Shown piece after piece: positions 4,665 through 57,242 of a stretch of DNA of 64,000 nucleotides. Every line of letters starts with the position of its first letter. Within the stretch, counting starts at the first letter, position 1. The notes beneath the pieces were generated by a model. That model made no database searches. It was not told the DNA's origin and was given only the letters and a program-made list of their open reading frames with translations. Where the stretch lies: contig CM059432.1 in the NCBI GenBank assembly GCA_030390025.1, positions 81,532,001-81,596,000 of the forward strand, written 5' to 3'. A program made the position numbers and the translations under genes. The stretch comes from Squalus acanthias (taxonomy: Eukaryota).

Positions 4665-5427
4665 GGCCCAAAAATTCGGCCGAATACGGGAGAGTACCCG
4701 CTGCGTACTCACCCGTATTCGGTCCCGAAGTGCCGGTTTCCTGCATGCACTGCGCATGCGCGGGAAACCGGCACTTCCGGTATGGCGAAGGGGGCGGTTC
4801 CTAAGTGAACCGCGTGCGCACTAGAGGCTGCGCGCACGCATCGCACTTAGGTTTTTTTTCAGGTTTCAACGCGAAGGTAAGTATGGAAGATTTTACACAT
4901 GAAAAAAGGAGGCGTAAGACCCCCTTTTAACAAGGTAAGTAGTTAATTAAGTATTATTTTAAAAAGATTTCAACAGGTTTATCTTTTTTAGAGACTTTAA
5001 AGAAAGGTAAGTTTATTTTTATAACTTTTAAAAAGAATTTAAATTTTTTCAAAAATTAAAATTTTTGTTTAAAGTGGTTAATTTATTTAACTATAGTTAT
5101 TTTATTAATGTGATGGGTTTTTAAAAATTTATTTGAGGTTTAGCTGTTCTTTTGGGGGCAATTTGTATTCATAGATTTGACAGTTCTCCTGTCAAATCTA
5201 TGAATGAAAGATGGTGTGCTGCCATTGGCTCTCCATGGCCCACGTGATCCCAGGAGTCGCATCGCACTAACTGCGCCTCTGGGACACGCACATACTGCGC
5301 GCCGGCACTAGGGAGAGGCCCAGGACCCGAAGTTCGTGTGGGCCCGAAACACAATGGCAGGCGCGGTAGGTAAGATCGCGCGCGATCCTTACCCCCGCGG
5401 CAAGCCTCCGAGTCAAATTTCTGGGCC
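4665..5427. mobile_element. Harbinger-type MITE
   Basis: TIR GGCCCARAAATT...AATTTCTGGGCC; 3-bp TSD ATT (4662-4664/5428-5430); second copy begins at 63927. Confidence 0.9.
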
Positions 5428-7313: not shown

Positions 7314-8781
7314 AACTAGCAGATCCGGGGTGGGGGGGTTGCGAGGGGGTGAGGGGAGTTGGAGATCAGGGGTGGGGGAGTTGGAGATTGTGGGGTCTGT
7401 AAAGAGGTAAGTTTGTTAGGCCTGGAGGAAACACACCAGCTCCTCCTGGCCCACAAGCATTGCTGTAAATGTACTTACCTCATGGATCCGGCCCTTTTCG
7501 CCTACTTTTACCTGCTGGGTTACCGATCCCCGGGGATCCCGGCCTCCATGAGTTAAAAATAAAAATCCTGTTAAAATGGAGGCACGCAGCCTCTTTAAAA
7601 GCTTTTACTGACCAGCCTGCCTCCTGGAAGCGAGTTGTTCGCCCCCCTCCATTAAAACCAGAAGTTGGCGGATTGGGGTCGGGTTTGAGATTTAATATTT
7701 TTTTACTTCCCACCCACCCCCAACCCACCCATCCTTGGGGGTTAAAACTCCCCCCAGGGAATCTCACCTTAAATTTAAAAAAAGGAATATAGTCTCAATA
7801 CTGGTATTGAGGACCGAGCCCATGAAGTGATTTATTACATTTCATTGCAAAGAAAGGCGGGCGACCTGGCCACCCAGCAGTAGGTCCTTCTGAAAACAGT
7901 GTCAGCTGGATCAGGAGCGGGAATGGGATAGTAAGCTTTCCCCATTGATAAAAATAATAAAAATAAAGTGGCGAGCTGATAAGGAGCTGTGAGGCTCCCC
8001 GTATTACTTCATTCAGTGTTAAGGAGCAAGATTGGATGTAGATTGCAATGTCGTCTACCATCCTCCAATACATTTGCGGTACCCTCACCTGGCGATAGGG
8101 CATTAATCTCTGTTTGAATACACAAGGCAGAATGAGTTCAGCTCACAGATTTTGCTCTCTAAATTCGTATGGCTGTCCAAAAGATGATTAAATGATGTGT
8201 TCTTAGCGTCTGTTGAGGACATACAGATTGCTGCTTTTTTTAAGTACACTGATGTGAAGATTAAAAAAGAATCTACACGGAAGATAAGGCCCCCGAGAAA
8301 GAGTGTGCACGTCATAAAGCATATCTGTAGCAATACTGATCAAAGCATACTTTAAAAATTGGGATTAATGACATTTCTAGATGCCAGCTATGGAACAATG
8401 AGCTTGTTTTCTGTAGGCAGTTACACCAAAGGCATATTGAAGAAAAATCAATGACTGATTATTTCTTTTCAATGAATTCATTGTGAATGCCCATGTTTTT
8501 TTTTCTCTAAGACTCTTTGTGAAGCATTATACTGTCAGTTCCAAAATTAAAAATCAAAACCAGACATTCAAGACTAGACTGATCATTTTTACTTGACTTA
8601 GTAATTTTTTATAAACTTTTGATGATCCAGTGCAAGGGATTACTTGTGTATGGTGTCTCTTGATAGAAGTGGTTTAATCTTTTCATAACTGCTTTCAGTT
8701 ACCTGTAAAGAGGCCAAGATACTAAACTAAATTATATTCCCTCAGAAGTATATGAACACTGTTGTCTGTCAAACTTATTAT

Positions 8782-10920: not shown

Positions 10921-12788
10921 CAGAAGATACCATAAAGTTTTGCTACACTATCCAATGATGGATCTGGCTGACTTTACACATAATCTTATTATTTTCAATG
11001 TTATCCAGTCAGATTAACGTCCCTAAGTGTTGAATCATAACCGATGGAGCCATATAGCATCACAGCAAAGACACTAATTGATTTTATCCAATCAGAGTTT
11101 AAAGAACATAAGAAAATAGGCATGAAGATGGTCATTCCTTCCACAATCCAATCCATGGTGGACTACCAAAACCATTTAACTTACAAGGAAAGATTCTGCA
11201 AATTTTTCCCTACCCTTCAAAGCTAATTTTAATCCTACATCATTTTTCTATGTCTCATCGACTTCCTCAGCATGACATTCTCAAGGCCTGGGCAGATCAG
11301 AAACCCTCATATTCAAGCAGTATTCAATAACTTTAGCATCACATTTAGATTCATGTGGTATATGTTTTCTACAATGAATGTGCTGAGAAATGTCAGGACT
11401 TTAATTCCTTAAAAGTTATTTTTGATATCTTTTCATTTTAAAGTAGTACTTGCTTTTGCAGAGATAAAGGCCCCGACTTTAAGGGCTGGCCTGGAGCCCC
11501 CGAAGTGGGCAAGGCACTGGCCTAATTTCCATGAATGTTCCCGGAGTCATGCCAGAAGCCGGCCAGATACCCCCGCCGTCAAGGGTGGAGGTCCGGAGAC
11601 GTTCGGGATCGGTGGGGGTGGGGGGGGGGGGCAGGCTTCTAGCCATGATTGAGGGGGGTGGGGAGTCTGTGTCAAGAGAGGCCCATGGCTTCCTTGTGAG
11701 GCACTCCTGCTCCTCCTGGTTCATAAGGAAACCTAACATAAAATTTTAAGGCCTAGAAATTCCAGAACGCTGGAAACCTGCCGGTGGCACCGCGGGCCGC
11801 AGTTAAAGGCCGCCAAAATTATTAGCGCAGCGCTAAACTTATTGTGCAAGGCCGGTTTTCAGGCGGAGTCTCAACAGGAGGCCCAATGTAGCGTGGCCGT
11901 AGAGTCATTGCAGCAAGAACAGCCTTCTCTTAAAGCAAGGCTGTCGTTTTAGGAAGCAGTGCAGTCCCTTAAAGAGGAACTGCCTTCTAAAATAATAAAC
12001 ATAAAAATCATTCAAAAACAGGCAGTTTTTAGCCCTTACAGCTCAACTGCCTTCTGAAAAAATAATTAACATTAAAAAGGATTCCCAAATGGCAGTTTTC
12101 AGCTCTTAAAGCTGAATTGCCTTCCGCACCTAAAAAATTTTTTAAAGTACTTCAGCACTAACACAAATGGCTCAGCAACCCAGGAAGGGGCACCCAGGGT
12201 CTTGCATACAGCACTCCAGCTTTGTGCAGAGGGGCAACACTGCAAGAGAGGCCCTCTACCCACACTGGCCAGGAAGCATTCCAGAAAGAACGATGTGGGA
12301 CCAGATATCCAAGGCCGTCACTGCCAGCAGTGATGCCCCACCACCTGGATCCAGTGCCCAAAGAAGCCTCATGACCTCAGACCAGTGGTCAAAGTCAGTG
12401 AATGCATCTTCAAAAGCCATCTCCTACCAACTGCACCACTAGCCTCACACACTTCTCAATGCATGACCATCCCCCACCCATTCACTCACCAACCAACAAT
12501 CTGTACCAAACATGAGGCATACTTCCCATTCTTAGCTTCACCTCACCCCCTTGGAGGAGACGGTGCAGGCCATTCTTGGCAGGGGCATGGCTGAGCCCTT
12601 GGCCAGCGGCGGGGCTCAAAGGATATAAGATGTTGGTATCCTCATAAGTTATCCTCCTTCTCACATGCACTTCTTGCTTTCTCGCCCTCCCCTCACCACA
12701 ACTCTACCCTTGCGCCTTCCTCATTTCACACACCCAGGAAATCCAGCCTGCCCAACCAGTGGTTGACCAAGAAGAGGGAGAGGAGAGA

Positions 12789-12843
12789 GAAGAAGAAGAA
12801 GAAGAAGAAGAAGAAGAAGAAGAAGAAGAAGAAGAAGAAGAAG
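12789..12843 (+). repeat. (GAA)n microsatellite
   Basis: About 18 perfect GAA units in the acidic part of the Myb-like remnant. Confidence 0.95.
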
Positions 12844-12868
12844 AGAAAACAACAAACAACACCATCAT

Positions 12869-15049
12869 TTGATTTCACACACTCAGCCACCAGCTCCAAC
12901 AGTTGGATCTCAAACAAGCGTGCTAAGCTTGAATAAAGGAGACTATGAAGGTATGCGAGCGGAATTGAGTAGAGTGGATTGGGAAAATAGATTAAAGGGT
13001 AAGACAATACATGATCAGTGGTGTACATTTAAGGAGTTATTTTACAACTTCCAAAAAATATATATTCCACTGAGAAGAAAAGGGTGTAAAAGAAAAGACA
13101 GTCATCCGTGGCTAAGTAAAGAAATTAAGGATAGTATTCGACTAAAAACAAGGGCTTATAAGGTAGCCAAATCTAGTGGGAGGATAGAGGATTGGGAAAA
13201 CTTTAAAAGACAGCAAAAAATAACAAAAAGATTGATTAAGAAAGGGAAGATAGATTATGAAAGTAAATTAGCAAAAAATATAAAAACAGATAGTAAGAGT
13301 TTTTATAGTTATATAAAAAGAAAAAGGGTGGCTAAAGTAAATGTTGGTCCCTTAGAGGATGAGACCGGGAAATTAATGGTGGGAAATATGGAGATGGCAA
13401 ATACACTGAATGGATATTTTGTATCAATCATTACAGTAGAGGACACTAAGAATATCCCAACACTGGACAAACAGGGGGCTATAGGGGGGGAGGAGCTAAA
13501 CACGATCAAAATCACTAAGGAAGTGGTACTCGGTAAAATAATGGGACTCAAGGCGGATAAATCACCTGGACTTGATGGCTTACATCCTAGGGTCTTGAGG
13601 GAAGTGGCGGTAGGGATTGTGGATGCATTGGTAATAATTTTCCAAAACTCCCTGGACTCAGCAAAGATCCCGGCAGACTGGAAAACTGCTAATGTAACAC
13701 CTTTATTTAAAAAGGGCAGTAGACAGACGGCTGGAAACTATAGAGCGGTTAGCCTAACATCTGTGGTAGGTAAAATTTTGGAGTCCATTATTAAGGAGAC
13801 AGTAATGGGACATTTGGATAATCATAATTTAATCGGACAAAGTCAGCATGGTTTTATGAAGGGGAAGTCATGTTTGACAAATTTGCTGGAGTTCTTTGAG
13901 GAAGTAACATACAGGGTGGATAAAGGGGAACCAGTGGATGTGGTGTATTTGGACTTCCAAAAGGCATTTGACAAGGTGTCACACGAAAGATTATTGCTTA
14001 AGATAAAAAATCACGGGATTGGGGGTAATATTCTGGCATGGATAGAGGATTGGCTATCTAACAGAAGGCAGAGAGTTGGGATAAATGGTTCATTCTCAGA
14101 CTGGCAATCAGTGACTAGTGGTGTTCCGCAGGGGTCAGTGCTGGGTCCCCAACTCTTTACAATCTATATTAACGATTTGGAGGAGGGGACCGAGTGTAAC
14201 ATATCAAAGTTTGCAGATGATACTAAGATGGGAGGGAAAGTAGTGAGTGAGGAGGACATAAAAAATCTGCAAGGGGACATAGACAGGCTAAGTAAGTGGG
14301 CAGAGATTTGGCAGATGGAATACAATACTGGAAAGTGTGAGGTTATGCACTTTGCTAGGAAAAATAGTAGAGCAAGTTATTATCTTAATGGCAAGAAACT
14401 GGAAAGTACTGAAGTACAAAGGGATCTGGGGGTGCTGGTGCACGAAACTCAAAAGGTTAGTATGCAGGTGCAGCAAGTGATTAAGAAGGCCAATGGAATG
14501 TTGGCTTTCATTGCTAGGGGGATAGAATATAAAAATAGGGAGGCATTGCTTCAGTTGTACAAGGTATTGGTGAGACCGCACCTGGAATACTGCATACAGT
14601 TTTGGTGTCCATACTTAAGAAAAGACATACTTGCTCTCGAGTCAGTACAAAGAAGGTTCACTCGGTTAATCCCGGGGATGAGGGGATGGACATATGAGGA
14701 GAGGTTGGGTAGATTGGGACTCTACTCATTGGAGTTCAGAAGAATGAGAGGCGATCTTATTGAAACATATAAGATTGTGAAGGGGTTGGATCGGGTGGAT
14801 GCGGGGAGGATGTTCCCGATGATGGGTGAAACTAGAACTAGGGGGCATAGTCTTAGAATAAGGGGCTGCTCTTTCAAAACTGAGATGAGGAGGAACTACT
14901 TCACTCAGAGGGTGGTAGGTCCATGGAATATGCTGCCCCAAAAAGCTGTAGAAGCTACATCATTACATAAATTTAAAACAGAAATAGACAGTTTCCTAGA
15001 AGTAAAGGAAATTAAGGGTTACGGGGAGCGGGCAGGAATTTGGACATGA
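12869..15049 (+). CDS. CR1 ORF2 reverse transcriptase (726-aa open frame, endonuclease missing; first ~10 codons are flank)
   Basis: KSPGLDGLHP, NYRAVSLTS, QHGFMKGKSCLTNL, YLDFQKAFD, GVPQGSVLGP, FADDTK, RPHLEYC. Confidence 0.9.
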   Translation: MISHTQPPAPTVGSQTSVLSLNKGDYEGMRAELSRVDWENRLKGKTIHDQWCTFKELFYNFQKIYIPLRRKGCKRKDSHPWLSKEIKDSIRLKTRAYKVAKSSGRIEDWENFKRQQKITKRLIKKGKIDYESKLAKNIKTDSKSFYSYIKRKRVAKVNVGPLEDETGKLMVGNMEMANTLNGYFVSIITVEDTKNIPTLDKQGAIGGEELNTIKITKEVVLGKIMGLKADKSPGLDGLHPRVLREVAVGIVDALVIIFQNSLDSAKIPADWKTANVTPLFKKGSRQTAGNYRAVSLTSVVGKILESIIKETVMGHLDNHNLIGQSQHGFMKGKSCLTNLLEFFEEVTYRVDKGEPVDVVYLDFQKAFDKVSHERLLLKIKNHGIGGNILAWIEDWLSNRRQRVGINGSFSDWQSVTSGVPQGSVLGPQLFTIYINDLEEGTECNISKFADDTKMGGKVVSEEDIKNLQGDIDRLSKWAEIWQMEYNTGKCEVMHFARKNSRASYYLNGKKLESTEVQRDLGVLVHETQKVSMQVQQVIKKANGMLAFIARGIEYKNREALLQLYKVLVRPHLEYCIQFWCPYLRKDILALESVQRRFTRLIPGMRGWTYEERLGRLGLYSLEFRRMRGDLIETYKIVKGLDRVDAGRMFPMMGETRTRGHSLRIRGCSFKTEMRRNYFTQRVVGPWNMLPQKAVEATSLHKFKTEIDSFLEVKEIKGYGERAGIWT

Positions 15050-16497: not shown

Positions 16498-16640
16498 AGC
16501 AGATGCTGGAAATCTGAAATAAAAGCAGAAAATGCTGGAAATACGCAGCAGGTCAAGCAGCATCTCCACCTGAGACGTGAACGCTGTTTCACTCTCCACA
16601 GATGCCACCTGACCTGCTGAGTATTTCCAGCATTTTCTGT
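16498..16640. mobile_element. Fold-back pair of Penelope 3' termini
   Basis: CAGAAAATGCTGGAAATAC.CAGCAGGTCA ... TGACCTGCTGAGTATTTCCAGCATTTTCTG. Confidence 0.8.
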
Positions 16641-18269
16641 CTCCTCAGAGGCCTTCCTTTACCATCTGAGGCCTTGCAAGTGTCCAGCAGCATTCCCTGC
16701 ACTCCGTGCACACTTTAATAACTTTTAACATCTATTGCACCAAGCCACTACAATAAAATATTAAAAAACCCGTCCAAAAGCTTAAATGCAAACTTACCTG
16801 AAAGATGTGTGTGTCCCTTTAAGAAGTGCTGAAAGCATCTCTGTCAGTCTGCTGCACGCTCGCTTTTCAGAGTGAGCTTAGGACACAGCGCTAAACTCAG
16901 TGCAAAGGTTCAAGTTCGCAGAGCGTGGCGTTAAGTTGGCATTGCACACCGACTGACATCACGCTCTCCAGATTTGCATGTCCAGGGCCAGTGCTGCTTA
17001 TGGCAGCGCTATGGCCCTCGCCAAAATGGCGGCCGCCGAGTCCCATGCCAGAGGCCAGCGGAAGAGCGGCGGCTGACATTTTTTTCTTGGAATCTACCGC
17101 TAACGGGTGGCGGTAAGTAGCCCAATTTCTAGGCCTAAAACTTACCTGCTTGGCCTCTTCAGGCCCATGATCCCTCCTCTTGGCAGGTTTGGCCTGAAGG
17201 GGAAGCTGTCACTGCTCCCCACTAGGGCCTTCAACTAAAATTTCAGATTGTCTCCTGATAACATCATTGGATCCGATTTGCATATTTAAAGCAGGACCCC
17301 ACTTCCTTCCTGCAGGTTTCAGAAGAGCAGGTAAAGGTTGGGACATGGCGGGAAAACCTCATTTTAATTGCCCTTCAGCCTGGTTTCCGCCAGGTGGGGA
17401 AAGTTAAAATCCGGACCTAAGTGTTGGATTTTCCTTTGTAATGCCACAGTAAATGGGGCAAGATAGCAGTGGAGAATGAGGAAAAATATAGTGGTGAGAC
17501 CTACTGCTGCTTCACTGCCCTGACCTGGATTTCCCTCCCCGCTACCTCTGGGTTCCATTGGCCACCCCTTCTCTGCCACATGCAAATACCAGAAGTGTGG
17601 GGCATGTGAGGTACTCAGTCCATTTCTCTCCCATCCGCTCCAGTTTCTGCCACTTCCCAGGGCCACCAATGTGGATGGTGGTGGTAGGAACAGGGAGCAA
17701 GGTCAGGTAATGGAGGGAGAATGTCTAGTACAGGCCTCCCATCCCACCGACCTTGCTCTCACACAGTTACCTGTATAGGCCTACAAAGCTGCAGCTTCAA
17801 TGATCTGTGAGGCACTTCTGTCCCCTTAAATGCCTGGCACCTCTTCTGGTTCTGCAGTGGCAGTGGCACTGCAGCACCGACAAGATTCTGCAGCTGGGCA
17901 CTGGCAGGTGTCCGCTTGATAATGGGACTCCAACCAAGAGCTTGCTACGAATCTTCAATGATCCTGATCCAGGAAAATGGGTTGCATTTGGGGCAGAGAT
18001 GGAGGGGCAGGTGGAAGTCCTGCCCCATCACTACTCCACCCCAAAGAGGAGAGCGCCACCCAATGGTACCTGACAGAAGCCAGTGATGGGAGTCAGGGTG
18101 CGCTTTTGGGCTGGTGCATTGATAAAATTTGCTCTGGGCTTTGGAGAGTGTGGTATCAATTCATCATATTATCAGGTTAAGTTGCAGGACCTTCTTCATT
18201 GTTAAAAATGTTTCCTCCCAGTGTCTTCACATTATTTAAAAGGCTCTATAAAGTGTAGTGCATGCACAG

Positions 18270-28625: not shown

Positions 28626-29297
28626 AAACAAAAACAGAAAATGGTAGAAACACTCAGCAGGTCAGTCAGCATCTGAGTTAATATTTCAGGTGTGAATCCT
28701 TCATAAGATCATGAAGGGGGAGAAATTCAATTCACATCCATCCGTTTGGCACCTGAAAAATAGGTGGCCAGAAGTTGAAAATTAGAGAGGGGGCACTTTG
28801 GCTTCCCCATTGATGCTCAAGACCCGCCTGATGCCATATTCAGCTGGGCCTGCAAATGGACGAGCAGCCTGCCTGCCTGAAACTGGTGAAACAGGTCCTT
28901 TGCTGGTTGTAGGACCCTTGTTGCAAAGCTCAGGTACAAATGGTTGGAGCTTGCGCTGCACAAACTCCACCCATTTGTTCTAGATCTTGAGCAGTCTAAC
29001 CAGTGGTCCTTAAAGGGACCTACCTGCGGGAGCTGGCCAGAATTTGTCCCAACCAGCAAGCTGCATCAGGACGCCCGATTGGCATCCACAGCTCACCGCT
29101 TACATTTAAAAGAGGACCAATGCTAAATCATCTGTTGACTTACCTCTCATTTTGGGCACACGTCCAATTTCTCCCCCAAAGGGTCTATAATTGAAATGTT
29201 AACTCACCTGTTCTGTCCACAGATGCTGACTGACCTGCTGAGTGTTTCCAACATTTTCTGTTTATGCTTCAGATTTCCAGCATCTGCAGTTTTTTGC
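28626..29297. mobile_element. Head-to-head Penelope termini with a Harbinger MITE (28716-29177) at the centre
   Basis: Arms 28626-28710 and 29178-29297 are inverse homologues; MITE TIR GGGGGAGAAATT/AATTTCTCCCCC. Confidence 0.8.
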
Positions 29298-29312
29298 TGC
29301 TTGCATTATACC

Positions 29313-30001
29313 ATGATGTGGAGATGCCGGCGTTGGACTGGGGTGGACAAAAATGAGAAGTCGCACAACACCAGGTTATAGTCCAACAGATTTATTTAAT
29401 TTTACAAGCTTTCGAAGCAGTTCGCTCCTTCGTCAGGTAAGTTAGCAATGAGAGAATCTCCCAGAATTCACAATTTAAACACAGACAAAATCTATTCACA
29501 TTTTTCCTACAACAAAGAGCACAGCCAAGACAATGAGATGTGTCCCAGGGGGTCCAACGTGTCAAACCACCTGCTGGCTGCATATCCTGTCAATTTGTGT
29601 TCTTGTGTTAGTAAAAAAAAAAATTTTTTAAAACACCTGGGAAGACCGGCCATGATGTCAAGTCACGTTCTGTATCGTGACATGAACCCGATATCGCGAT
29701 TGAGGCCATCCTCATGAGTGCGGAACTTGGCTATCAGTTTCTGCTCTATGCGCTGTCGTGTATCTCGAAGGCCGCCTTGGAGAACGCTTACCCGCAGATC
29801 CGAGGCTGAATGCCCCTGGCTGCTGAAGTGTTCCCCGACTGGGAGGCAACCCTCCTGCCTGGCGATTGTTGCGCGGTGTCCGTTCATACGTTGTCTCAGT
29901 GTCTGCATGGTCTCGCCGATGTACCATGCTCTGGAGCATCCTTTACTGCAACGTATCAGGTAGACAACGTTGGCCGAGTCACATGAGTATGTACCGTGTA
30001 C
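29313..30001 (-). mobile_element. 5'-truncated Penelope-like element: GIY-YIG endonuclease end plus pLTR
   Basis: NVVYLIRC..WYIGETMQTLRQRMNGH..VGEHF..GLNRD; homologous to 52583-53732. Confidence 0.95.
29402..29440 (-). ncRNA. Minimal type I hammerhead ribozyme motif, intact
   Basis: TTAC-CTGACGA-A-GGAGC GAACT GCTTC-GAAA-GCTT-GTAA. Confidence 0.85.
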
Positions 30002-30200
30002 CTGTATACCATGTAATACCATTATACCATTATATCATGTAATATATAATGCTGCTAATGTCGCTCTCTGTCCCTCAAAGTTTTATTGCTATTAAATAAA
30101 TACAGAGTGAGATCAGTCAGAGTTATTTTGCAGATTTGTCCATTAATGTCAGGCTCCAAGGCAGTGATTGACATTTTTTCTTGATTATTTTGTCATTTGT

Positions 30201-32044: not shown

Positions 32045-33752
32045 CAAAAGCAAAATACTGCAGAGGCTGGAAATCTGAAATAAAAACAGAAAATGCTGGA
32101 AATACTCAGCAGGTCAGGCAGCATCTGTGGAGAGAGAAACAGAGTTAACGTTTCAGGTCGATGACCTTTCATCAGAACTGGAAAAAGTTAGAGATGTAAC
32201 AGATTTTAAGCAAGTGTAGGGGCAGGGAAAGGGGGCAGGGGAGGAAAGTGCTAAAGGGAAGGTCTGTGATAGGATGGAAGGCAGGAGTAATTAAAGGACA
32301 AAAGGTATGATTGTACAAAGCAAAAGGAGATGGTAATGGGACAAGTAAAGAAACAAAAGATGGGTCTAGAAGAGGTGTAAATGGGAATGGCAGAATCATC
32401 AACAGCTGCCATCTGAAAAAATAGGGCCAGAGGTTCTGGTCTGAAATTGTTGAACTCGATGTTGAGTCCAGAAGGCTGTAAAGTGCCTAATCGAAAGATG
32501 AAGTGCTGTTCCTCGAGCTTACGTTGAGTTTCATTGGAACAGTGTAAGAGGCCGAGAACGGAGAGGTCAGAGTGGGAGTGGAGCAGAGAATTAAAGTGAC
32601 AGGTGACCGGAAGCTCGGGGTCAGGCTTGCGGACTGAACAGAAGTGTTCCGCAAAGCAGTCACCCAATCTGCATTTGGTCTCCCCAATGTAGAGGAGACT
32701 GCACCGTAAGCAGCGAATATAGTATACTAAATTGCAAGTACAAGTAAATCGCTGTTTCACCTGGAAGGAGTGTTTGGGGCCCTGGACGGTGGGAAGGGAG
32801 GAGGTAAAAGGGCAGGTGTTGCATCTCCTGAGCTTGCACAGGAAGGTGCCGTGGGACGGGGTGGGGTGTTGGGGGTGATTGAGGATTGGACCAGGGTGTC
32901 GCGGAGGGAGTGGTCCTTCATAATGCTGAAAGGGGAGGGGAAGATGTGTTTGGTGGTGGGATCACGCTGGAGATGACGGAAATGGCGGAAGATGATCCAT
33001 TCAATGTGGAGGTTGGTGGGATGAAAGGTGAGGACAAGGGGAACCCTATCGTGGTTTTGGAAGAGAGGGGAAGGGGTGAGAGCAGAAGTGCGGGAAATGG
33101 AACGGACACGGTCGAGGGCCATGTCAACCATGGTAGAGGGAAATCCTCGGTTGAGGAAAAATGAAGACATATTATGGCACTAGTATGGAAGGTGGCATCG
33201 TCAGAACAGATGCGACAGAGCCGGAGAAACTGGAAGAATGGAATAGAGTCCTTACAGGAAGTGGGGTGGGAGGAAGTGTAGTCCAGGTAACGGTGGGAGT
33301 CAGTGGGCTTATAGTGGATGTTTGTCGATAGCCTATCCCCAGAAATGGAGATAGAGAAGTCGAGGAAGGTGAGGGAAGGGTGGAAATTGGAAGCAAAGTT
33401 AAATAAATTTTCAAGTTCAGGGCGAGAGCAGGAAACGGCACCGATACAGTCATCAATATACCAGAAAAAGAGGTGAGGGAGGGGACCTGAGTAGGACTGG
33501 AACAAAGAATGTTCCACATATCCCACGAAAAGGCAGGCATAGCTAGGACCCATGCGGGTTCCCATAGCAACACCTTTAATTTGGAGGAAGTGAGTGAAGT
33601 CAAAGGAGAAGTTGTTCAATGTGAGAACAAGTTCAGCCAGGCAGAGGAGGGTGGTGGTGAATGGGGACTGGTTGGGCTTCTGTTCAAGGAAGAAGCGGAA
33701 CACCCTCATGGTGTCCTGGTGGGGGATGGAGGTGTAGAGGGATTGGACGTCC
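32045..33752 (-). mobile_element. Penelope-like element, second family: RT plus GIY-YIG pseudogene and pLTR
   Basis: MDVQSLYTSIPH, GVAMGTRMGPSYA, YIDDC, FLD, KPTDSH; LVYYIRC..LLYIGETK..FAEH; frameshifted. Confidence 0.95.
32143..32179 (-). ncRNA. Minimal type I hammerhead ribozyme motif, intact
   Basis: AGTT-CTGATGA-A-AGGTC ATC GACCT-GAAA-CGTT-AACT. Confidence 0.85.
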
Positions 33753-34427
33753 ATGGTGGTACCCACGTCCATGGGTTAAAACCCAATGGGTGGCTCACCC
33801 ACCAATGCCCCGTCCGAATCCTGCTATTGCCGATTTTTACTGGCACTTCTAGATAGACAGCTAAGCCGCCCACTTAAAACAGATGAAGTGCTTCTTTAAA
33901 TACACAGATCAGGGTCTGATGACAGGCAATTTTAACTCCAACCTCAGTTTTTTTACTTACCTTTGCCAGGCCAGTAGGAGTAGGAGTGTTCCTCCAGGTC
34001 CTTTCCCCGGACTTCCCTCTTTCCCTATTGCGAGATATCCCCAAATCTGTGTCCCAACGCCTACCTTTGTGGTGACAGACAGCCAAAGGCCTCTCGATCT
34101 TCCACAGGCCAGCAGTCACTTCCTGGGATGGCGGCAAATTAACTGCATCCTGCGGTTTCCCACCAGAAACCTGCAGGGAGTTATAATTGAATTCTAGATC
34201 TTGACTCCCCGATGTACGACACCATGGGAGATTGATTAGTAATCTCTTAAAAGTCTTGCATAAAGGAAGCACTTCCTACAAGTGTCATACTTACTTCCTG
34301 TAACACTTCCCCGATGCACTTTATTGATTTTACAGAACAGAATTTGTCTTATTGATCACCGTAAATTAGCAGCCTGATAATAATACATTGTGAGTTCATG
34401 ACATCACACAGTTATTATGAAATAATA

Positions 34428-35430
34428 GGGTCGATTTTACCTGCAGATGGTTTTCGGACAGACAGTGGGCGGAGCAATCTGCCTGATGTCATCCGTCTGA
34501 GGCCCGAACCATTTTGACATTTGGGCTTCATTGATAGGCTGCCCACACCTTTCCGGCACTGACTTTTAACCTGCCCAATTGGAGGGAACGATTTACAATG
34601 GGCTTAACGCCCATTTAAAGAGTGAATGTACCTCTTAAAGCAAAGTTTCATTCAACTCATTCCACTGAGAGTATGTCTCAGCCAAGAGCATTTCACTTCG
34701 CTGATACAGAGGTGGAGTTGCTGGTGGTGCAGGTGAGGACACACAGGCAGGTCCTGTTCCCATCAGATGGCAGTAAAGTGCCCAAAAAGATGCTACAGCA
34801 GGCTTGGAGGGAGGTGGCAGACAATGTCAATGCTCAGAGCATCGCCCCCAGGTCATGGGTTCAGTGCCAGACGTGCTTCAATGACCTGAACTGGACAGCA
34901 ATGGTCAGCATGAGGTCTTCATATCTCTACTTCTCTGCATTGGATCTGGCCACAGCAATTCCAGCCCCTCCCCGAGCACATTAAAGACTTCCTGCACCTG
35001 CTCCACATGCTCCTCCACCAATCACTAGGGAACACTGCAACAACTCTCCTCATTCCAATAACCTGTTGTTGCTACCCTCACAGCAGGCACTAACAGACAT
35101 CTGCTTTTACCCGATAGTTACTGCTAAGCATTTCGCTCCTCTGCTGATTGCTTTCTCATTTCACAGTGGAGTCACTTTCCTTCACATGACCACCCCCCCA
35201 TCCTGTTCGCAACTTGCTGCTCCTCCCACTCAGTATGCACACTATATGAAGCTGGTGCACACACTTGTACAACCCTTTTCAACACTCACTCATTAACTCT
35301 CTCCCTTTCTTTCTGTAGGAGAAGCTGGCTCACAATAACTGGGATAGAACCAGAACTAGGGGAGGGCCGGTCTCCATCCAGGCCCTCAATCAGATGGAAG
35401 TGGAGGCGATAGACATCATTGGGGCAGGTA
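34428..35430 (+). mobile_element. Harbinger end carrying Myb/SANT-like exons 1-2
   Basis: MSQPRAFHFADTEVELLV..AWREVA..RSWVQCQTCFNDL, GT intron, then TTCTGTAG|EKLAHNNWDRTRTRGGP; possible TIR GGGTCGATTTT. Confidence 0.8.
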
Positions 35431-40657: not shown

Positions 40658-41826
40658 GTTAGAAGCGGTGTCTTATGAGCCGTTCACGAATGGCCCTTGC
40701 AGTGGCAACATTGTGTGCCACCCTCCCACGTTGGTGCTGCTGATCCTCCTCATCCTCCTCCTCCTCCTCTCCCTCCTCCCTCCTCCTCCTCCTCAGGTGG
40801 TGCACCAATCCCTGGTGGCAATGGCTGGGTCCTCATGATCGCAATGTTATGAAGCATGCAGCACACAACAATGAAGAGGGAGACTCGCTCGGGAGAGTAC
40901 TGCAGGGCTCCTCCTGAGTGGTCCAGACACTGGAACCGTTGTTTCAAGATGCCGATCGTCTGCTCTATGAGGTTCCTGGTGGCGCTATGGCTCTCATTTT
41001 ATTGCAGCTCGGCAGGGGTGTTGGGGTTACGGAGCGGTGTCATCAGCCAGGTGCAGAGTGGATAACCCTTGTCCCTGAGGAGCCAGCCATGAGGTTGAAA
41101 CGGTGGTTGGAAGAGATCTGCGACACCAGTCTGGTGCAGGATAAAAGCATCGTGGCTGCTGCCAGGATAGCGGGCATTGACTGGCGAGGATGCGCTGTCT
41201 GTGGTCACAGACCAACTGGACATTCAGAGAGTGGAAGCCCTTGCGGTTTCGGAACACCTCTGCATTCTCAAGAGGTGCCCGCAATGCCACATGCGTGCAG
41301 TCAATGGCACCCTGAACCATAGGGAAGCCCGCTATCCTAGCAAAGCCACATGCACGTTCGCGCTGTTTGTCCCAGGTCATGGGGAAAGAGATGTACTGGC
41401 GTCTCCTTTTATACAGAGCATTTGTCTCCTTCCGATGCAACAATGAACAGCGAACTGGGAGATATTCGCTATGTCCCTAGTAGGAGCCTGAAAGGAGCCG
41501 CTGGCATAGAAATTGAGAGCCACCGTCACCTTCACTGCCATCGACAGAGACGTCCTGTTCCTGAGCTGAGGCTGCAGATCTGGTTGCAGGAGGCGGCAGA
41601 GCTCAGTGACCACCTCCTTGCTGAAGCAGAGCCTGCGGAAACACTGCTCCTCAGACAAATGGATATAGGAGAATTGCTCCCGGAATACCCTGGGAGGGTA
41701 AGGTCTCCTGTGCAGAGGCCTGTTGGCCCTCCTCCCTCTGGCCACGTTTGCCACTCTCTCTCTGCACCTCTGCTGCCTCCAAAGGTGAAACTGGAGGACG
41801 ACGCCCCGACTTAGTGCAGCCCCCAT
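40658..41826 (-). pseudogene. Harbinger DDE transposase (HARBI1-family), frameshifted
   Basis: [72 protein letters not shown]. Confidence 0.95.
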
Positions 41827-41997
41827 AAAATCTTCTAAATATGGTAAATATGAAGGTCAGATAAATATGAACCTCAAAAGTGGTGCTGAGGACCCAAAAC
41901 TCCTTAGGGCAGCGTTAAATCTCTCCAGACGTCTCTCTCCCTTTCAACCTGCGTGTACCAAAAATTTTGCCGACAAGAAAAGGCAGGAAGCGCCCGC

Positions 41998-44924: not shown

Positions 44925-45015
44925 TAGAAATAGAACATGTTGGAAATACACAGCAGGCCAGTCAGCATTGGTAAAGGGCAAAAAACATTTCAGGTGTGTA
45001 CCCTTCCTCAGACTG
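44925..45015 (-). mobile_element. Solo Penelope 3'-terminal unit with hammerhead core
   Basis: Minus strand CAGT-CTGAGGA-A-GGGT ACAC ACCT-GAAA-TGTT; 3' arm of stem I decayed. Confidence 0.65.
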
Positions 45016-48530: not shown

Positions 48531-49823
48531 TTTCAACTGTGCTGCTGAGCCTGGACAACCCGAGAGATCCACAAGCATGTTTCTCAATTTCCTTTTAACA
48601 GGCTATTCATTTCCTGGTGTTAAGGTGGGATAAAAGGATTTCTTGCAAGTTTGTCGATGTAGCACATTTCCAGGCACTAGATGCTTGTGAAATTAAAATT
48701 TCTGCCTAACACAGACATGACTTAATTCTGTAGTCCTTCTAATTGGTGCCCAGAATGCCTCGTTTAGATGGGTCCCTTGACCTGAAGGCCTATAACAGGT
48801 ACCTGTGATCAATTTTAGACCAACAGCTTGATCCACCTGCACCCAATTGCTTCAGCTTTACTGTGCAGACCAATATCATCTGTATCTAGAACACTTGGTA
48901 ACAAACAGAGCTCCATCCCTCTGATTTTCCCTATTCTGTCCTTTCAGAATCCCTTGTATCCCTTTAATTGAAATTCTGCCTCATAATTTGTATCCAAGAC
49001 TGAGACACTTGTTTTGCATTAGTGGTGCCCTCCTCCTGAGAGGGGCACACAGTGGTATTTGTCCAGGTGGCATTGCGCTCACATCCAGTGCCACTCTATG
49101 TACCCAGATTCAAAACAGAACCATGGGCTCGATTTTGCCAGGCCCGAGGAGGCAGGTTTGGAGGCGTGTGAGGTGTTATCATCACAGAAAATGGCGGACA
49201 GATCCGATCCTGCCTCCAGCCCGCCTCCGAGTAATTTTCCCAAAATCGGGGTTTCAGACCCCGTTTCCATCCCGCCTTCAAGAAGCGGGATAGGCCCTTA
49301 AGGCCCTTAACAACCAGTTAAGTGCCTCTATAATCCCATTTTGAGAGGCCTTTGTGAGTTTAACACATTTCCCCCGTGCTGCACGTCTCCTCTGGAACAC
49401 GCCAGTTAATCCCGGCGGCCTCACAAATGGATGGCTTACTAACAGCTGCAGCTCCACCATTAAAAAGGAGTTTTCAGCAATGATCATTTGCAGGTGGCAG
49501 AACTTTGTTGTCTCAGGTCTGGGGGAACTTTTAGCAAGCCTACTCATTGTTGTGGAAGTTTGGAGCCTGAGACCCATCTCCAGTGTGACCTCCTGGGAAA
49601 CCCCTCTCCCCACCTTGACTGAGCGCTTCCTCAACTGAGGTATATACCTGCAGCATGGGAACCATTTATTTCCTTTCCTCCTGGACATCAGATTCGGACG
49701 AAGACCAGCCGCGGCAGCAGCAGAATCCTGAACAATAGCAGCACCAACAGCAGGAGCAACAACAGGAGCGCCAAGCTGCTGCCTCACCTACCTGAAGCTG
49801 CACAGGCCAGAAGGCGCCAGCGC

Positions 49824-50888
49824 ATGGAAGCACGTCGCCGCAGGAACTACCCCCAAAACAGGGTTTACAGACAGAGGATGAGCTACCTCAACATGACTGA
49901 GCAGCAGTGCCAAAGGAGGCTCAGACTTTCGCGAGAGGTAGTGGGTGACATCTGCGCAATGCTGCAGCAAGACCTGGAGCCCAGAGGAGCGGGTGGACAC
50001 CCCTTACCAGTGGCCGTCAAAGTCACCACTGCACTCAACTTTTTTGCTTCAGCATCATTCCAGGGATCAACAGCAGACATCAACGGCGTCTCCCAGGCGG
50101 GCGCACACACTTGCATCACGCAGGTAACCGATGCCCTCTTTGCCATCGCGCACAATTACATCAACTTCTCCAAGGATCAAGCAAGTGTAAGCGCGCGTGC
50201 GGTTGGATTTGCTAATCTGGCAGGCTTTCCAAGGGTGCAGGGCATTGTTGACTGCACACATGTGGCCCTTAAGGCACCCCATCACAATCCAGGTATTTTT
50301 GTCAACCGCAAAGGCTTCCACTCCCTTAACGTGCAGCTGGTGTGTGACCACAAGAAGGAAATTTTGCATGTTTGCGCCAAGTACCCTGGCAGTTGCCATG
50401 ACTCCTTCATCCTGCGGCAGTCTAGTGTGCCAGACCAACTTTTCGGATGGCTACTTGGAGACAAGGGCTATCCCCTGAAGACGTGGCTAATGACACCATT
50501 GAGGAGGCCATCCAATGAAGCTGAGGAGCGCTACAACTCCAGCCACATTTCCACCAGATCCATAATCAAGCAAACCATTGGCTTGCTGAAGATGCGATTC
50601 AGATGCCTTGATAGATCAGGTGGAGCCCTGCAGTACTCAGCAGCCAGGGTCTCCAGAATCGTCGTGGTCTGCTGTGCACTTCACAACATGGCGCAGCATC
50701 GTGGCTTGCAGCTGCCTGAGGTACAAGTGGCTCATCACATAGCCTCCTCAGATGAGGAGGAGGAGGAGGAGGAGGAGGAGAGCGACAACGAACAGCTTGC
50801 GGAGGCGCATCAACCAGCGGCAGCAGCACGCGAGCACATTGCTGCCCGGGATGCAAGGGATGCACTCATCTTGGCCAGATTTGCTTAG
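49824..50888 (+). CDS. Harbinger DDE transposase (HARBI1-family), 354-aa open frame, third catalytic residue E>K
   Basis: [50 protein letters not shown], acidic tail. Confidence 0.9.
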
Positions 50889-51451: not shown

Positions 51452-52497
51452 TTATCTTCCTCTTACACGTGGTCCTACGTGGTTCTTCCCCTGTGGCTTC
51501 AGCAGATGTGAAGGCCCCTTGCTCACTTTCTTGCTGCTCCTGCCTCGACACCTTTGGCGGGAGTCCTCTGGGGTTGCGAACCTGTGAGGGCTCGGCAACA
51601 GTCTGCTGCTCCTGCGGCTGTGCAGGGGCTGAGATGCCGATCTCAGTTGGGTGAGCACTCTGGTAGGGCTCTGCAGTGGCATGGTCATGTGAGTGCTTGG
51701 AGAGGAGCCCCCACTTCCTTGTTCTCTGCCACCAACATCCCTCTCATGGGTCAGCCCCACTTCAGAGCTAGAAAGTGGCTTGACAGCACCTTGCTGCACA
51801 TCAGGGGGGCCATGAGGACCTGTTTCTGCACTGGAAGTACGACTGCAGAGGACTTCCATGAAGGTCTGGTTTGTATGCTCAATAGCTGACCATTGCTCCT
51901 CAAGAGATGTCAGTCTATTCTGAACAATGACCATGTTTTCAAGACCCTGGCGACTGGCTGTAGACATCCTCTCCTCTACTGTAGCCATCCTCTGCTCTAT
52001 GGTAGTCAACCTTACCACGGAGGTAGCCATCCTTTCCGTGGTGATGCGTTCATGCGCCAATGCCTCCACAAAGGCTCTGCTCATGTTAGCGATGGACTCC
52101 TCCATTCGCTCCACACTCGCAGCGACCCTGGAGACAAAACCTGCTAGAGACTCCTGCACCTGTTTCTGGAGTCCCAGCACCGCTCTCCTTCTGGATGGAC
52201 CCGGAGGCACAGGGTCGACATGCAGTGAGCTGGGAGAGTCCTGCGCCCTCCGACGAGGACTCTCCACTGCTGTCCCTGTCTCCACCATCTGCTGATGCTC
52301 ACTTGTGAGCTGTGATACACCAGGTGACAACTCTACTCTATGTCCCGAAGGTCCCACCGAGGTGTGAGTGTCTGCGCTGGTGCTAGGTGCGCTTAATTCT
52401 GCTGATGCTGTGCCCTTAGAGATTGCAGCTTCCTCTGAGGAGTCTGGGGGCTCAGGCTGTTCCTCCTGGACAATGGGGAGGGGGTCTGTTGATGGTC
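51452..52497 (-). pseudogene. Last exon of the Harbinger accessory (Myb-like) gene, still open
   Basis: Acceptor CCCCCACAG at ~52498; PSTSADT motif, coiled-coil-like region, basic tail; upstream Myb exons not found. Confidence 0.7.
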
Positions 52498-52582
52498 CTG
52501 TGGGGGAGTAAAGGAAAGAGTTAGACATGTGAGATAAACGTTGCATGCACATTGAATTGTGCAGATGATCATAAGTCAATCT

Positions 52583-53732
52583 ATCGATCGACAGTTCCGA
52601 CGGGCCACAGCGAAAAATCGCATAGACCTCCTCAGAAGGCAAACACGGGACACAACCAACAGGGTACCCTACGTCGTCCAGTACTTCCCCGGAGCGGAGA
52701 AACTACGCCATGTTCTTCGCAGCCTTCAACATGTCATCGATGACGACAAACACCTCGCTAAGGCCATCCCCACGCCTCCACTACTTGCCTTCAAACAGCC
52801 GCCTAACCTCAGAAGTACCATCGTTCGCAGCAAATTACCCAGCTTTCAGGATAACAGCGACCACGACACCACACAACCCTGCCACGGCAAACTCTGCAAG
52901 ACATGCCAGATCATCAACACAGATACCACCATCACATGTGAGGACACTACCCACCAGGTACATGGTACATACTCATGTGACTCGGCCAACGTTGTCTACC
53001 TCATACGTTGCAGGAAAGAATGCATGGTACATCGGCGAGACCATGCAGACACTGAGACAACGTATGAACGAGCACCGCGCAACAATCGCCAGGCAGGATT
53101 GTTACCTCCCAGTCGGGGAACACTTCAGCAGTCAAGGACATTCAGCCTCGGATCTGCGGGTAAGCGTTCTCCAATGCGACCTTAGGAACACACGACAACG
53201 CAAAATCATCGAGCAGAAACTGATAGCCAAGTTCCGCACTCATGAAGACAGTCTCAACCGGGATCTTGGGTTTATGTCACGATACATGACGTGATCCGGA
53301 CTCGAGTCGTCGTTGGCTTGTTCACAGATGTGATTCCCAGTAAAAAAGTAAAAATTTTAAAGCTTATCGTTTTACATACAGACGGCAGCTTTTGACACGT
53401 TAGACCCCCTGCGACTCCACCTCATTGTCTCAGTTGTATCTTGCTATGTCTTTGATGTGGTACCTTCCTGGCTGACCTGATTAACTTTATCACACCTCGG
53501 CAGATAAACAGTCAGGATGATTTAATTTAGTTGTCTGCAATTGTAAGGTACACATGCATTGTTCTCTATCTATATATGCTTTGGCGATTCTGTATCTCTT
53601 TACTTCACCCGACGAAGGAGTAGTAAGCTCCGAAAGCTTGTGATTTCAAATAAAACTGTTGGACTATAACCTGGTGTTGTGCGAACTCTCAATTTTGTCC
53701 ACCCCAGTCCAACACCGGCATCTCCGCATCAT
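52583..53732 (+). mobile_element. 5'-truncated Penelope-like element (Cys-rich linker, GIY-YIG, pLTR; Neptune-like)
   Basis: PCHGKLCKTC, NVVYLIRC, [frameshift] WYIGETMQTLRQRMNEH, LNRDLG. Confidence 0.95.
53605..53643 (+). ncRNA. Hammerhead motif with core mutation (CCGACGA)
   Basis: TCAC-CCGACGA-A-GGAGT AGTAA GCTCC-GAAA-GCTT-GTGA. Confidence 0.75.
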
Positions 53733-56854: not shown

Positions 56855-57242
56855 AGCATATATAGATAGAGAACAATGCATGTGTAAGTATCTACAGAGA
56901 TGCAAGAAAGCAGACAAGATCCCGAAAGGACTACAGATACACGTTAGACCCCCTGCGACTCCACCTCATTGTCTCAGTTGTATCTTGCTATGTCTTTGAT
57001 GTGGTACCTTCCTGGCTGACCTGATTAACTTTATCACACCTCGGCAGATAGTCAGGATGATTTAATTTAGTTGTCTGCAATTGTAAGGTACACATGCATT
57101 GTTCTCTATCTATATATGCTTTGTCGAGTCTGTATTTCTTTACTTCACCTGAGGAAGGGGCGATCGATAGCTCCGAAAGCTTCTGATTTCAAATAAAACT
57201 GTTGGACTATAACCTGGTGTTGTGCAACCTCTCAATTTTGTC
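56855..57242 (+). mobile_element. Solo Penelope pLTR with short 5' inversion
   Basis: 56939-57242 nearly identical to 53395-53700; 56855-56886 is the exact reverse complement of 57089-57120. Confidence 0.9.
57145..57186 (+). ncRNA. Hammerhead motif, core intact, one stem I mismatch
   Basis: TCAC-CTGAGGA-A-GGGGC GATCGATA GCTCC-GAAA-GCTT-CTGA. Confidence 0.75.

What the first reader, a model, noticed from the sequence alone, without database searches (positions are those of the whole stretch)
29402..29440. Intact minimal hammerhead with covariation support
Seen: stem I TTAC/GTAA here versus TCAC/GTGA at 53605 (compensatory pair); stem II pairing kept across GGAGC/GCTTC, GGAGT/GCTCC and GGGGC/GCTCC while loops differ freely; stem III reduced to palindromic AAGCTT. 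Known: minimal hammerheads with palindromic stem III in Penelope pLTRs are thought to cleave as dimers. Predicted site is CUU, with an extra A after the core.
Basis: partly seen in the sequence, partly recalled or inferred. Interest (0 to 1): 0.75.

Follow-up and report, generated by a model that had tools for sequence, protein, structure and literature searches.

The report
Penelope retrotransposon's minimal hammerhead ribozyme
This is a real, intact copy of the small self-cutting-RNA motif that Penelope-like jumping genes are already known to carry, one of tens of thousands in this genome; it would likely cut only slowly and only when paired with a second copy, which this lone, truncated insertion lacks.

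Summary
The motif is real, on the minus strand (29440->29402): stem I TTAC/GTAA, core CUGACGA, extra A, 5-bp stem II, GAAA-GCU-U. It sits at the 3' end of a 5'-truncated Penelope-like element with a Neptune/Nematis-type linker. The genome holds 66,826 matches to the pattern (control 2), 1,949 exact copies of this 39-mer, and full-length tandem elements with the same motif at both ends. Every feature named (extra A, palindromic helix III, GCUU site) is in Cervera & de la Pena 2014. Selection on structure is visible: N7 and loop II vary freely and stem changes keep pairing. This copy has no compatible same-strand partner in the window. Side results: 98 of 100 copies read through the cut site; a U4C lineage spread to about 1,500 copies; 5' truncations cluster at the ribozyme's 5' edge. 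Cleavage was not tested. The scan found this kind of motif, and the U4C variant, before on other DNA.

The parts
29402..29440 (-). Minimal type I hammerhead motif: stem I 4 bp, core CUGACGA, extra A, stem II 5 bp with one G-U, GAAA-GCU-U; predicted cut between 29406 and 29405
   Evidence: sequence; 1,949 exact genome copies
29407..29410 (-). AGCU palindrome (A15.1 G15.2 C16.2 U16.1): helix III can form only between two copies
   Evidence: sequence; cofold
29312..29401 (-). pLTR part 3' of the ribozyme plus the optional tail, ending at the ATG that starts the ORF in tandem copies (ATG at 29314-29312)
   Evidence: identical to L061 through the ATG; bimodal 3' ends of the family
29441..29662 (-). 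3' UTR of the element, upstream of the ribozyme
   Evidence: alignment to L061
29663..30007 (-). C-terminal GIY-YIG endonuclease remnant; the element is 5'-truncated near 30007
   Evidence: PF01541 E=5e-05; 5' end
53605..53643 (+). Comparator copy of a sister subfamily with a U4C core (CCGACGA), in a longer 5'-truncated element
   Evidence: subfamily of 1,051 matches
57145..57186 (+). Third copy, short insertion; pair 2.1-1.1 broken (TCAC/CTGA)
32143..32179 (-). Minimal hammerhead of a second Penelope-like family (AGTT/AACT stem I, ACGU palindrome); nearest same-strand motif, helix III incompatible with AGCU
   Evidence: 56,700 matches against 56 control

Best explanation
The motif is the minimal hammerhead carried in the terminal repeat of a very abundant Penelope-like retrotransposon; it likely self-cleaves only slowly, as a dimer or with help from the element's protein, and this lone truncated copy is likely a passive passenger. 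Shown: the anatomy, the host element, the copy number, and a pattern of change across subfamilies that fits a hammerhead (N7 and loop II free, position 17 U or C, stems kept). Inferred from published work: two motifs pair through AGCU, swap stem I strands and cut after CUU. In a full-length tandem transcript the two motifs lie 3.0 kb apart and the cut is 91 nt ahead of the ATG. Selection acted in the source elements, not on this insertion. Most new copies were made from RNA that was uncut, or cut and re-joined, at this site.
For: Host: GIY-YIG upstream. L061 has identical motifs at 5348-5378 and 8372-8402 around a 919-residue stop-to-stop frame with RT (PF00078 E=2.5e-08), YIDD, a C-X4-C-X2-C linker and a GIY-YIG-like end. 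Sample chosen by an anchor 3' of the ribozyme (first 100 of 76,701 hits): 84 parse as whole motifs, 15 are cut short by truncation, 1 lacks the extra A. In the 84: N7 = C34/G34/A13/U3; position 17 = U73/C11, never G; GCU at 15.2-16.1 in 84 of 84; stem II pairs kept in 83-84 of 84; 18 loop II variants. On 38 distinct motifs 96.8% of cells pair, with 15 double-sided changes (0 of 500 shuffles; at most 2 in slid controls). A second family has all four stem I pairs and the palindrome changed compensatorily. The motif fits the published consensus, and the turtle entry has GC-U-U.
Against: No cleavage was measured. The monomer's minimum-energy fold is not the hammerhead fold and is not unusual (z -1.44). 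In the nearest-neighbour model the double hammerhead (-11.1 kcal/mol) is much less stable than a dimer held by the 6-bp AAGCUU duplex (-22.3), though the model ignores core tertiary contacts. Only 2 of 9 pairs show a double-sided change (68 of 500 shuffles as high), and the stem I change has one origin on the tree. A U4C lineage spread widely, so a fully active core is not required. Part of the conservation could come from promoter or RT-start constraints on the same repeat.
Confidence: 0.85

Rival explanations
1. The ribozyme cuts tandem transcripts into unit lengths that are circularised; reverse transcription starts inside the circle at the tail and runs through the re-joined site, giving partial tandems.
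For: Proposed in PMC4209133. Read-through of the cut site in 98 of 100 copies, more-than-unit arms (L061) and 2-4-unit arrays at about 3.14 kb spacing are all compatible with it.
Against: The same data fit uncut tandem transcripts. In the anole element, ribozyme mutants inserted normally in vitro and no RNA-seq reads ended at the site (PMC11167929). The U4C lineage spread.
Confidence: 0.25
2. The motif no longer acts as a ribozyme in this family and is kept for another role of the repeat (protein binding, promoter, RT pausing).
For: Read-through copies; U4C spread; unfavourable fold energies. Naiad and most Chlamys elements lack the motif and still proliferate (PMC8557442).
Against: The one core position that varies freely is N7, the one known to be free in hammerheads (established knowledge), and position 17 keeps to the NUH rule. 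U4C is the core change reported to lower activity without abolishing function in a viroid (PMC3088659).
Confidence: 0.1
3. This particular copy was co-opted by the host as an active cis-acting ribozyme.
For: It is intact.
Against: It is one of 1,949 identical young copies, so intactness reflects age. There is no same-family, same-strand partner in the window, and the nearest same-strand motif has an incompatible palindrome.
Confidence: 0.02

Closest known systems
Minimal hammerheads (min-HHR) in pLTRs of metazoan Penelope-like elements (Cervera & de la Pena 2014, PMC4209133)
   Same: Type I; no helix III; palindromic 15.2/16.2; extra nucleotide between 9 and 10.1; G10.1-C11.1; short helix I; mostly single truncated copies and opposite-strand pairs. 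The Chrysemys entry has the same GC-U-U site and the Petromyzon entry the same UCAC/GUGA stem I.
   Different: Copy number (66,826 for one pattern, plus 56,700 for a second family) exceeds the about 4,000 and 9,000 reported there for coelacanth and Xenopus, by a different search method. No cartilaginous fish name was found in the supplement file searched (file 1 not searched).
Poseidon element of Anolis carolinensis (Frangieh et al. 2024, PMC11167929)
   Same: Ribozyme near the ORF start; two 3' end positions giving an optional tail; insertion from unprocessed RNA.
   Different: There the ORF begins inside the ribozyme and the clade lacks the Zn-finger linker. Here the ATG is 91 nt after the cut and the linker has C-X4-C-X2-C (Neptune/Nematis type).
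Non-LTR retrozymes (Cervera & de la Pena 2020, seen as a search listing; Li et al. 2026, bioRxiv 10.64898/2026.07.22.740005)
   Same: Type I hammerhead; link to Penelope pLTRs.
   Different: Retrozymes are short non-coding tandem units. This copy is a single truncated piece of a coding element.

Membership tests
PLE minimal hammerhead (min-HHR) | Core CUGANGA ... GAAA ... NUH | tested here: met
   CUGACGA / GAAA / CUU
PLE minimal hammerhead (min-HHR) | Extra nucleotide between A9 and G10.1; G10.1-C11.1 pair | tested here: met
   A at 29429; G-C in 84 of 84 parsed copies
PLE minimal hammerhead (min-HHR) | No intramolecular helix III; palindromic 15.1-16.1 | tested here: met
   AGCU here, ACGU in the second family
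PLE minimal hammerhead (min-HHR) | Located in both pLTRs of a PLE | tested here: met
   L061 and L062 have motif-ORF-motif; the window copy keeps only the 3' one
PLE minimal hammerhead (min-HHR) | Structure-keeping variation across families | tested here: met
   few independent events
PLE minimal hammerhead (min-HHR) | Self-cleavage as dimer and not as monomer | not testable with these tools
   needs an assay; the one raw-read RNA run laid gave 0 reads
EN+ Penelope-like element | Single ORF with RT and C-terminal GIY-YIG; partial tandems; inverted truncated copies; 30-40 nt tail | tested here: met
Neptune/Nematis clades | CX2-5CxxC motif in the RT-EN linker | tested here: met
   C-X4-C-X2-C in P0001; criterion from PMC8557442
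Neptune clade | RT groups with Neptune rather than Nematis in a tree | not tested
   no reference RT sequences were fetched
Canonical (Rfam) type I hammerhead | Helix III with loop; match to an Rfam model | tested here: not met
   no hammerhead family among 13 matches at E<=10
Non-LTR retrozyme | Short non-coding tandem units, each with a hammerhead | tested here: not met
   single copy attached to a GIY-YIG remnant

The most novel reading that the evidence does not exclude
With tens of thousands of copies this genome is a natural experiment on what the Penelope hammerhead is for. It is not used to cut the template of new copies (98 of 100 read through; a weakened U4C lineage spread), yet its catalytic pattern is kept. 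It could instead be a brake that depends on concentration: transcripts of one family pair in trans through a family-specific palindrome (AGCU or ACGU) and cut 91 nt ahead of the ATG, uncapping the element's mRNA when expression is high. Its hairpins also seed the fold-back junctions where many 5' ends cluster.
Probability: 0.12. Interest if true: 0.6.

Novelty: new member of a known kind. Interest (0 to 1): 0.18.

Why it matters
As a single motif it matters little: it is one of many copies of a published ribozyme form. The family is a useful test bed for an open question, namely why Penelope elements keep a barely active hammerhead. It offers young full-length elements with open ORFs and natural U4/U4C and CUU/CUC variants whose spread in the genome can be counted.

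Tried and rejected
Rfam scan: no hammerhead model matched. Single-strand folding gave no signal for any of 5 stretches (z -0.2 to -1.6). RNA evidence: no RNA holder listed; the one raw-read RNA run (X22, about 12% read) gave 0 reads, so no test; the three contig runs laid (X1, X4, X18) hold the element but cannot show ends or strand. Idea that templates are linear cleavage products: rejected. None of 100 anchor copies and none of 29 placed ORF-start copies (30 fetched) begins at the cut; 2 of 100 begin 2-4 nt after it, no more than background. Idea that a transcription start about 50 nt upstream of the cut explains the clustered 5' ends (suggested by L061 and L062): not supported. ORF-start copies begin anywhere from 84 nt downstream to 871 nt upstream (upstream lengths are lower bounds). 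The first estimate of 5' ends was confounded by inverted arms and was redone. Alignment A1 misplaced the second-family row and was replaced by A2. Heterodimer with the 32143-32179 motif: rejected, since AGCU against ACGU leaves two mismatches. Lunse et al. (PMC5785218) is not held; I saw only its title and the summary in PMC6765202. Searches for shark PLE hammerheads and for truncation at the ribozyme found no paper reporting them; the library lacks most subscription papers, and Repbase/Dfam annotation could not be checked.

Full report
Observation. On the minus strand, 29440->29402 reads stem I TTAC, core CTGACGA, an extra A, stem II GGAGC/GCTTC around GAACT, then GAAA, GCT, U17 and GTAA. The predicted cut is between 29406 and 29405. 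Helix III cannot close in one molecule (A15.1-U16.1 would enclose two bases), but AGCU is self-complementary. The window holds two relatives, at 53605 and 57145 (+). Rfam does not call the motif, and the loose core pattern is not enriched in the window. The case rests on the family.

Host element. A GIY-YIG remnant lies directly upstream at 29663-30007 (PF01541). The insertion runs from about 30007 to 29312 and is about 96% identical to the end of a full-length element in L061. L061 has two motifs identical to this one, 3,024 bases apart, around a 919-residue stop-to-stop frame with RT (PF00078, E=2.5e-08), a C-X4-C-X2-C linker and the endonuclease. By the criterion in Craig et al. (PMC8557442, passages) the linker means Neptune or Nematis; I built no RT tree. 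The 3' ends of the family are bimodal, near +52 to +60 and +90 to +98 from the cut, which is the optional tail of these elements. The window copy has the long form, ending at the ATG of the next unit. That the host is a cartilaginous fish is my recollection of such repeats and the wording of earlier notes; no call names it.

Abundance. The pattern CTGANGAAG..CGAAAGCTT has 66,826 matches (control 2). A downstream anchor has 76,701 (control 0), the exact 39-mer 1,949, and tail-into-ORF junctions 621. Among the 100 listed exact copies one pair is a same-strand tandem at 3.0 kb; many are opposite-strand pairs. A second family with an ACGU palindrome has 56,700 matches (control 56), one of them at 32143-32179.

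Covariation. I took the first 100 exact anchor hits (contig C1), chosen without regard to the ribozyme. Eighty-four parse as whole motifs; by eye 15 of the rest are cut short by 5' truncation and one lacks the extra A. In the 84, N7 takes all four bases (34 C, 34 G, 13 A, 3 U), position 17 is U (73) or C (11), GCU is invariant, loop II has 18 forms, and each stem II pair is kept in 83 or 84 copies. Stem I pair 2.3-1.3 is C-G (53), U-A (25) or U-G (2); the 4 mismatches are copies truncated inside stem I. The outer pair 2.4-1.4 is kept in only 64, so stem I is three firm pairs. Alignment A2 holds 38 distinct motifs: 35 from the sample (4 stem-I-truncated haplotypes and one identical to the window's were left out) plus 3 window copies. 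In it 96.8% of cells pair and 15 cells change on both sides (0 of 500 shuffles; slid controls at most 2), but only 2 of 9 pairs do so (68 of 500 shuffles). On a tree of the endonuclease region (29 rows kept of 50 that had it, at most two per haplotype; the finding's own copy did not pass the length filter, its subfamily did) the C-G form is one side of one branch, with U-G forms near its base. The stronger argument is the whole pattern plus the second family, where all four stem I pairs and the helix III pair differ and still pair.

How it likely works. Cervera & de la Pena (PMC4209133; main text parts 1-2 of 4, supplement file 2 part 2 of 3) defined this form, with the extra nucleotide, G10.1-C11.1 and the palindrome. 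They found no monomer cleavage and low dimer cleavage. Their alignment has GC-U-U in a turtle. Frangieh et al. (PMC11167929, parts 1-2 of 4) found that the anole ribozyme cuts only with the element's protein, is not needed for insertion in vitro, and leaves no read ends in RNA-seq. A review (PMC6765202, passages) reports dimer cleavage from Lunse et al., which I could not read. By inference this motif does the same. Energy models give it no special support: monomer z -1.44; double hammerhead -11.1 kcal/mol against -22.3 for a dimer held by AAGCUU, in which A14 pairs with U17. In the window there is no same-family, same-strand partner, and the nearest same-strand motif has an incompatible palindrome, so this copy could cut only in trans.

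What the copies say about function. Ninety-eight of 100 anchor copies read through the cut site, two begin 2-4 nt after it and none at it. None of 29 placed ORF-start copies begins at it. Templates were thus uncut or re-joined; these data cannot tell which. Two subfamilies carry U4C from their source: 462 and 1,051 matches, with CC in 98 and 97 of the 100 listed; the few CT copies fit CpG decay. U4C is one derived change on the tree, with weak support. Perreault et al. (PMC3088659, passages) cite U4C as lowering activity in vitro while allowing viroid infectivity. Finally, 5' ends cluster 30-60 nt upstream of the cut, at the ribozyme's 5' edge: 26 of 85 arms at risk (28 less one reference-limited pair) against 9.6 expected from neighbouring bins (nominal P 1e-6, overstated because arms of one insertion are not independent). 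In the finding's own subfamily it is 4 of 30 against 1.4 (P 0.05; one duplicate row dropped). Many of these junctions are fold-backs in stem II or just upstream of the core. Self-priming at palindromes is already proposed for these elements (PMC3846280, passages). One search found no paper on clustering at the ribozyme.

Verdict. Real, well formed and ordinary: a new member of a known kind. RNA data gave no test. A bioRxiv survey (10.64898/2026.07.22.740005, part 1 of 5 and passages) already includes one chondrichthyan with PLE-linked hammerheads; its supplements are closed and may list this family. PMC6155905 (passages) added nothing specific. Earlier scan notes reached the same reading, including U4C in this genome; I had found U4C before that look-up.

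Noticed in passing
window 53609-53615 (+); genome-wide: U4C core variant inherited by two subfamilies totalling about 1,500 exact copies; L252 shows a third loop variant with U4C in a copy that runs on into the ORF start.
   Followed up: yes
L031-L164 sample: 5' truncation and inversion junctions cluster at the 5' edge of the hammerhead (30-60 nt upstream of the cut), often as fold-backs within its own stems.
   Followed up: partly
window 32143-33775 (-): Second Penelope-like family: broken RT and GIY-YIG frames plus an intact minimal hammerhead with an ACGU palindrome; 56,700 genome matches.
   Followed up: partly
window about 29165-29300 (+) and 44950-45015 (-): Decayed copies of the second family's ribozyme end; the first abuts the tail of the finding's element, tail to tail.
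   Followed up: no
window 29434-29442 (+): The antisense of stem I plus core reads CAG|GTAAGT, a consensus splice donor; 1,949 identical copies share most of it and could act as cryptic donors in host introns.
   Followed up: no
window 30008-30050: The 5' junction carries short repeated pieces resembling the element's 3' junction, suggesting template slippage during insertion.
   Followed up: no
L061 (G000:C9:59337500-59347000): A 4-kb inverted duplication (99.9%) that includes a full-length element and its flank, giving two open 919-residue frames.
   Followed up: no
G000 C2:175562959-175569273 and C2:211213573-211223016: Head-to-tail arrays of 3 and 4 units at about 3.14 kb spacing.
   Followed up: no
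window 49623-50888 (+), 51452-52702 (-), 41027-41856 (-), 34619-34984 (+): Harbinger/PIF-like DNA transposon genes: an open 421-residue DDE_Tnp_4 frame, a broken second copy and a Myb/SANT-like frame; the 416-residue frame has no Pfam match.
   Followed up: partly
window 12767-15049 (+): Open 760-residue RT frame of a LINE (PF00078 E=1e-29), CR1-like by recall.
   Followed up: no
window 4726-4778 and 16513-16649: Near-perfect hairpins that gave weak miRNA-model scores in Rfam; the second looks like an inverted pair of the second family's 3' end.
   Followed up: no
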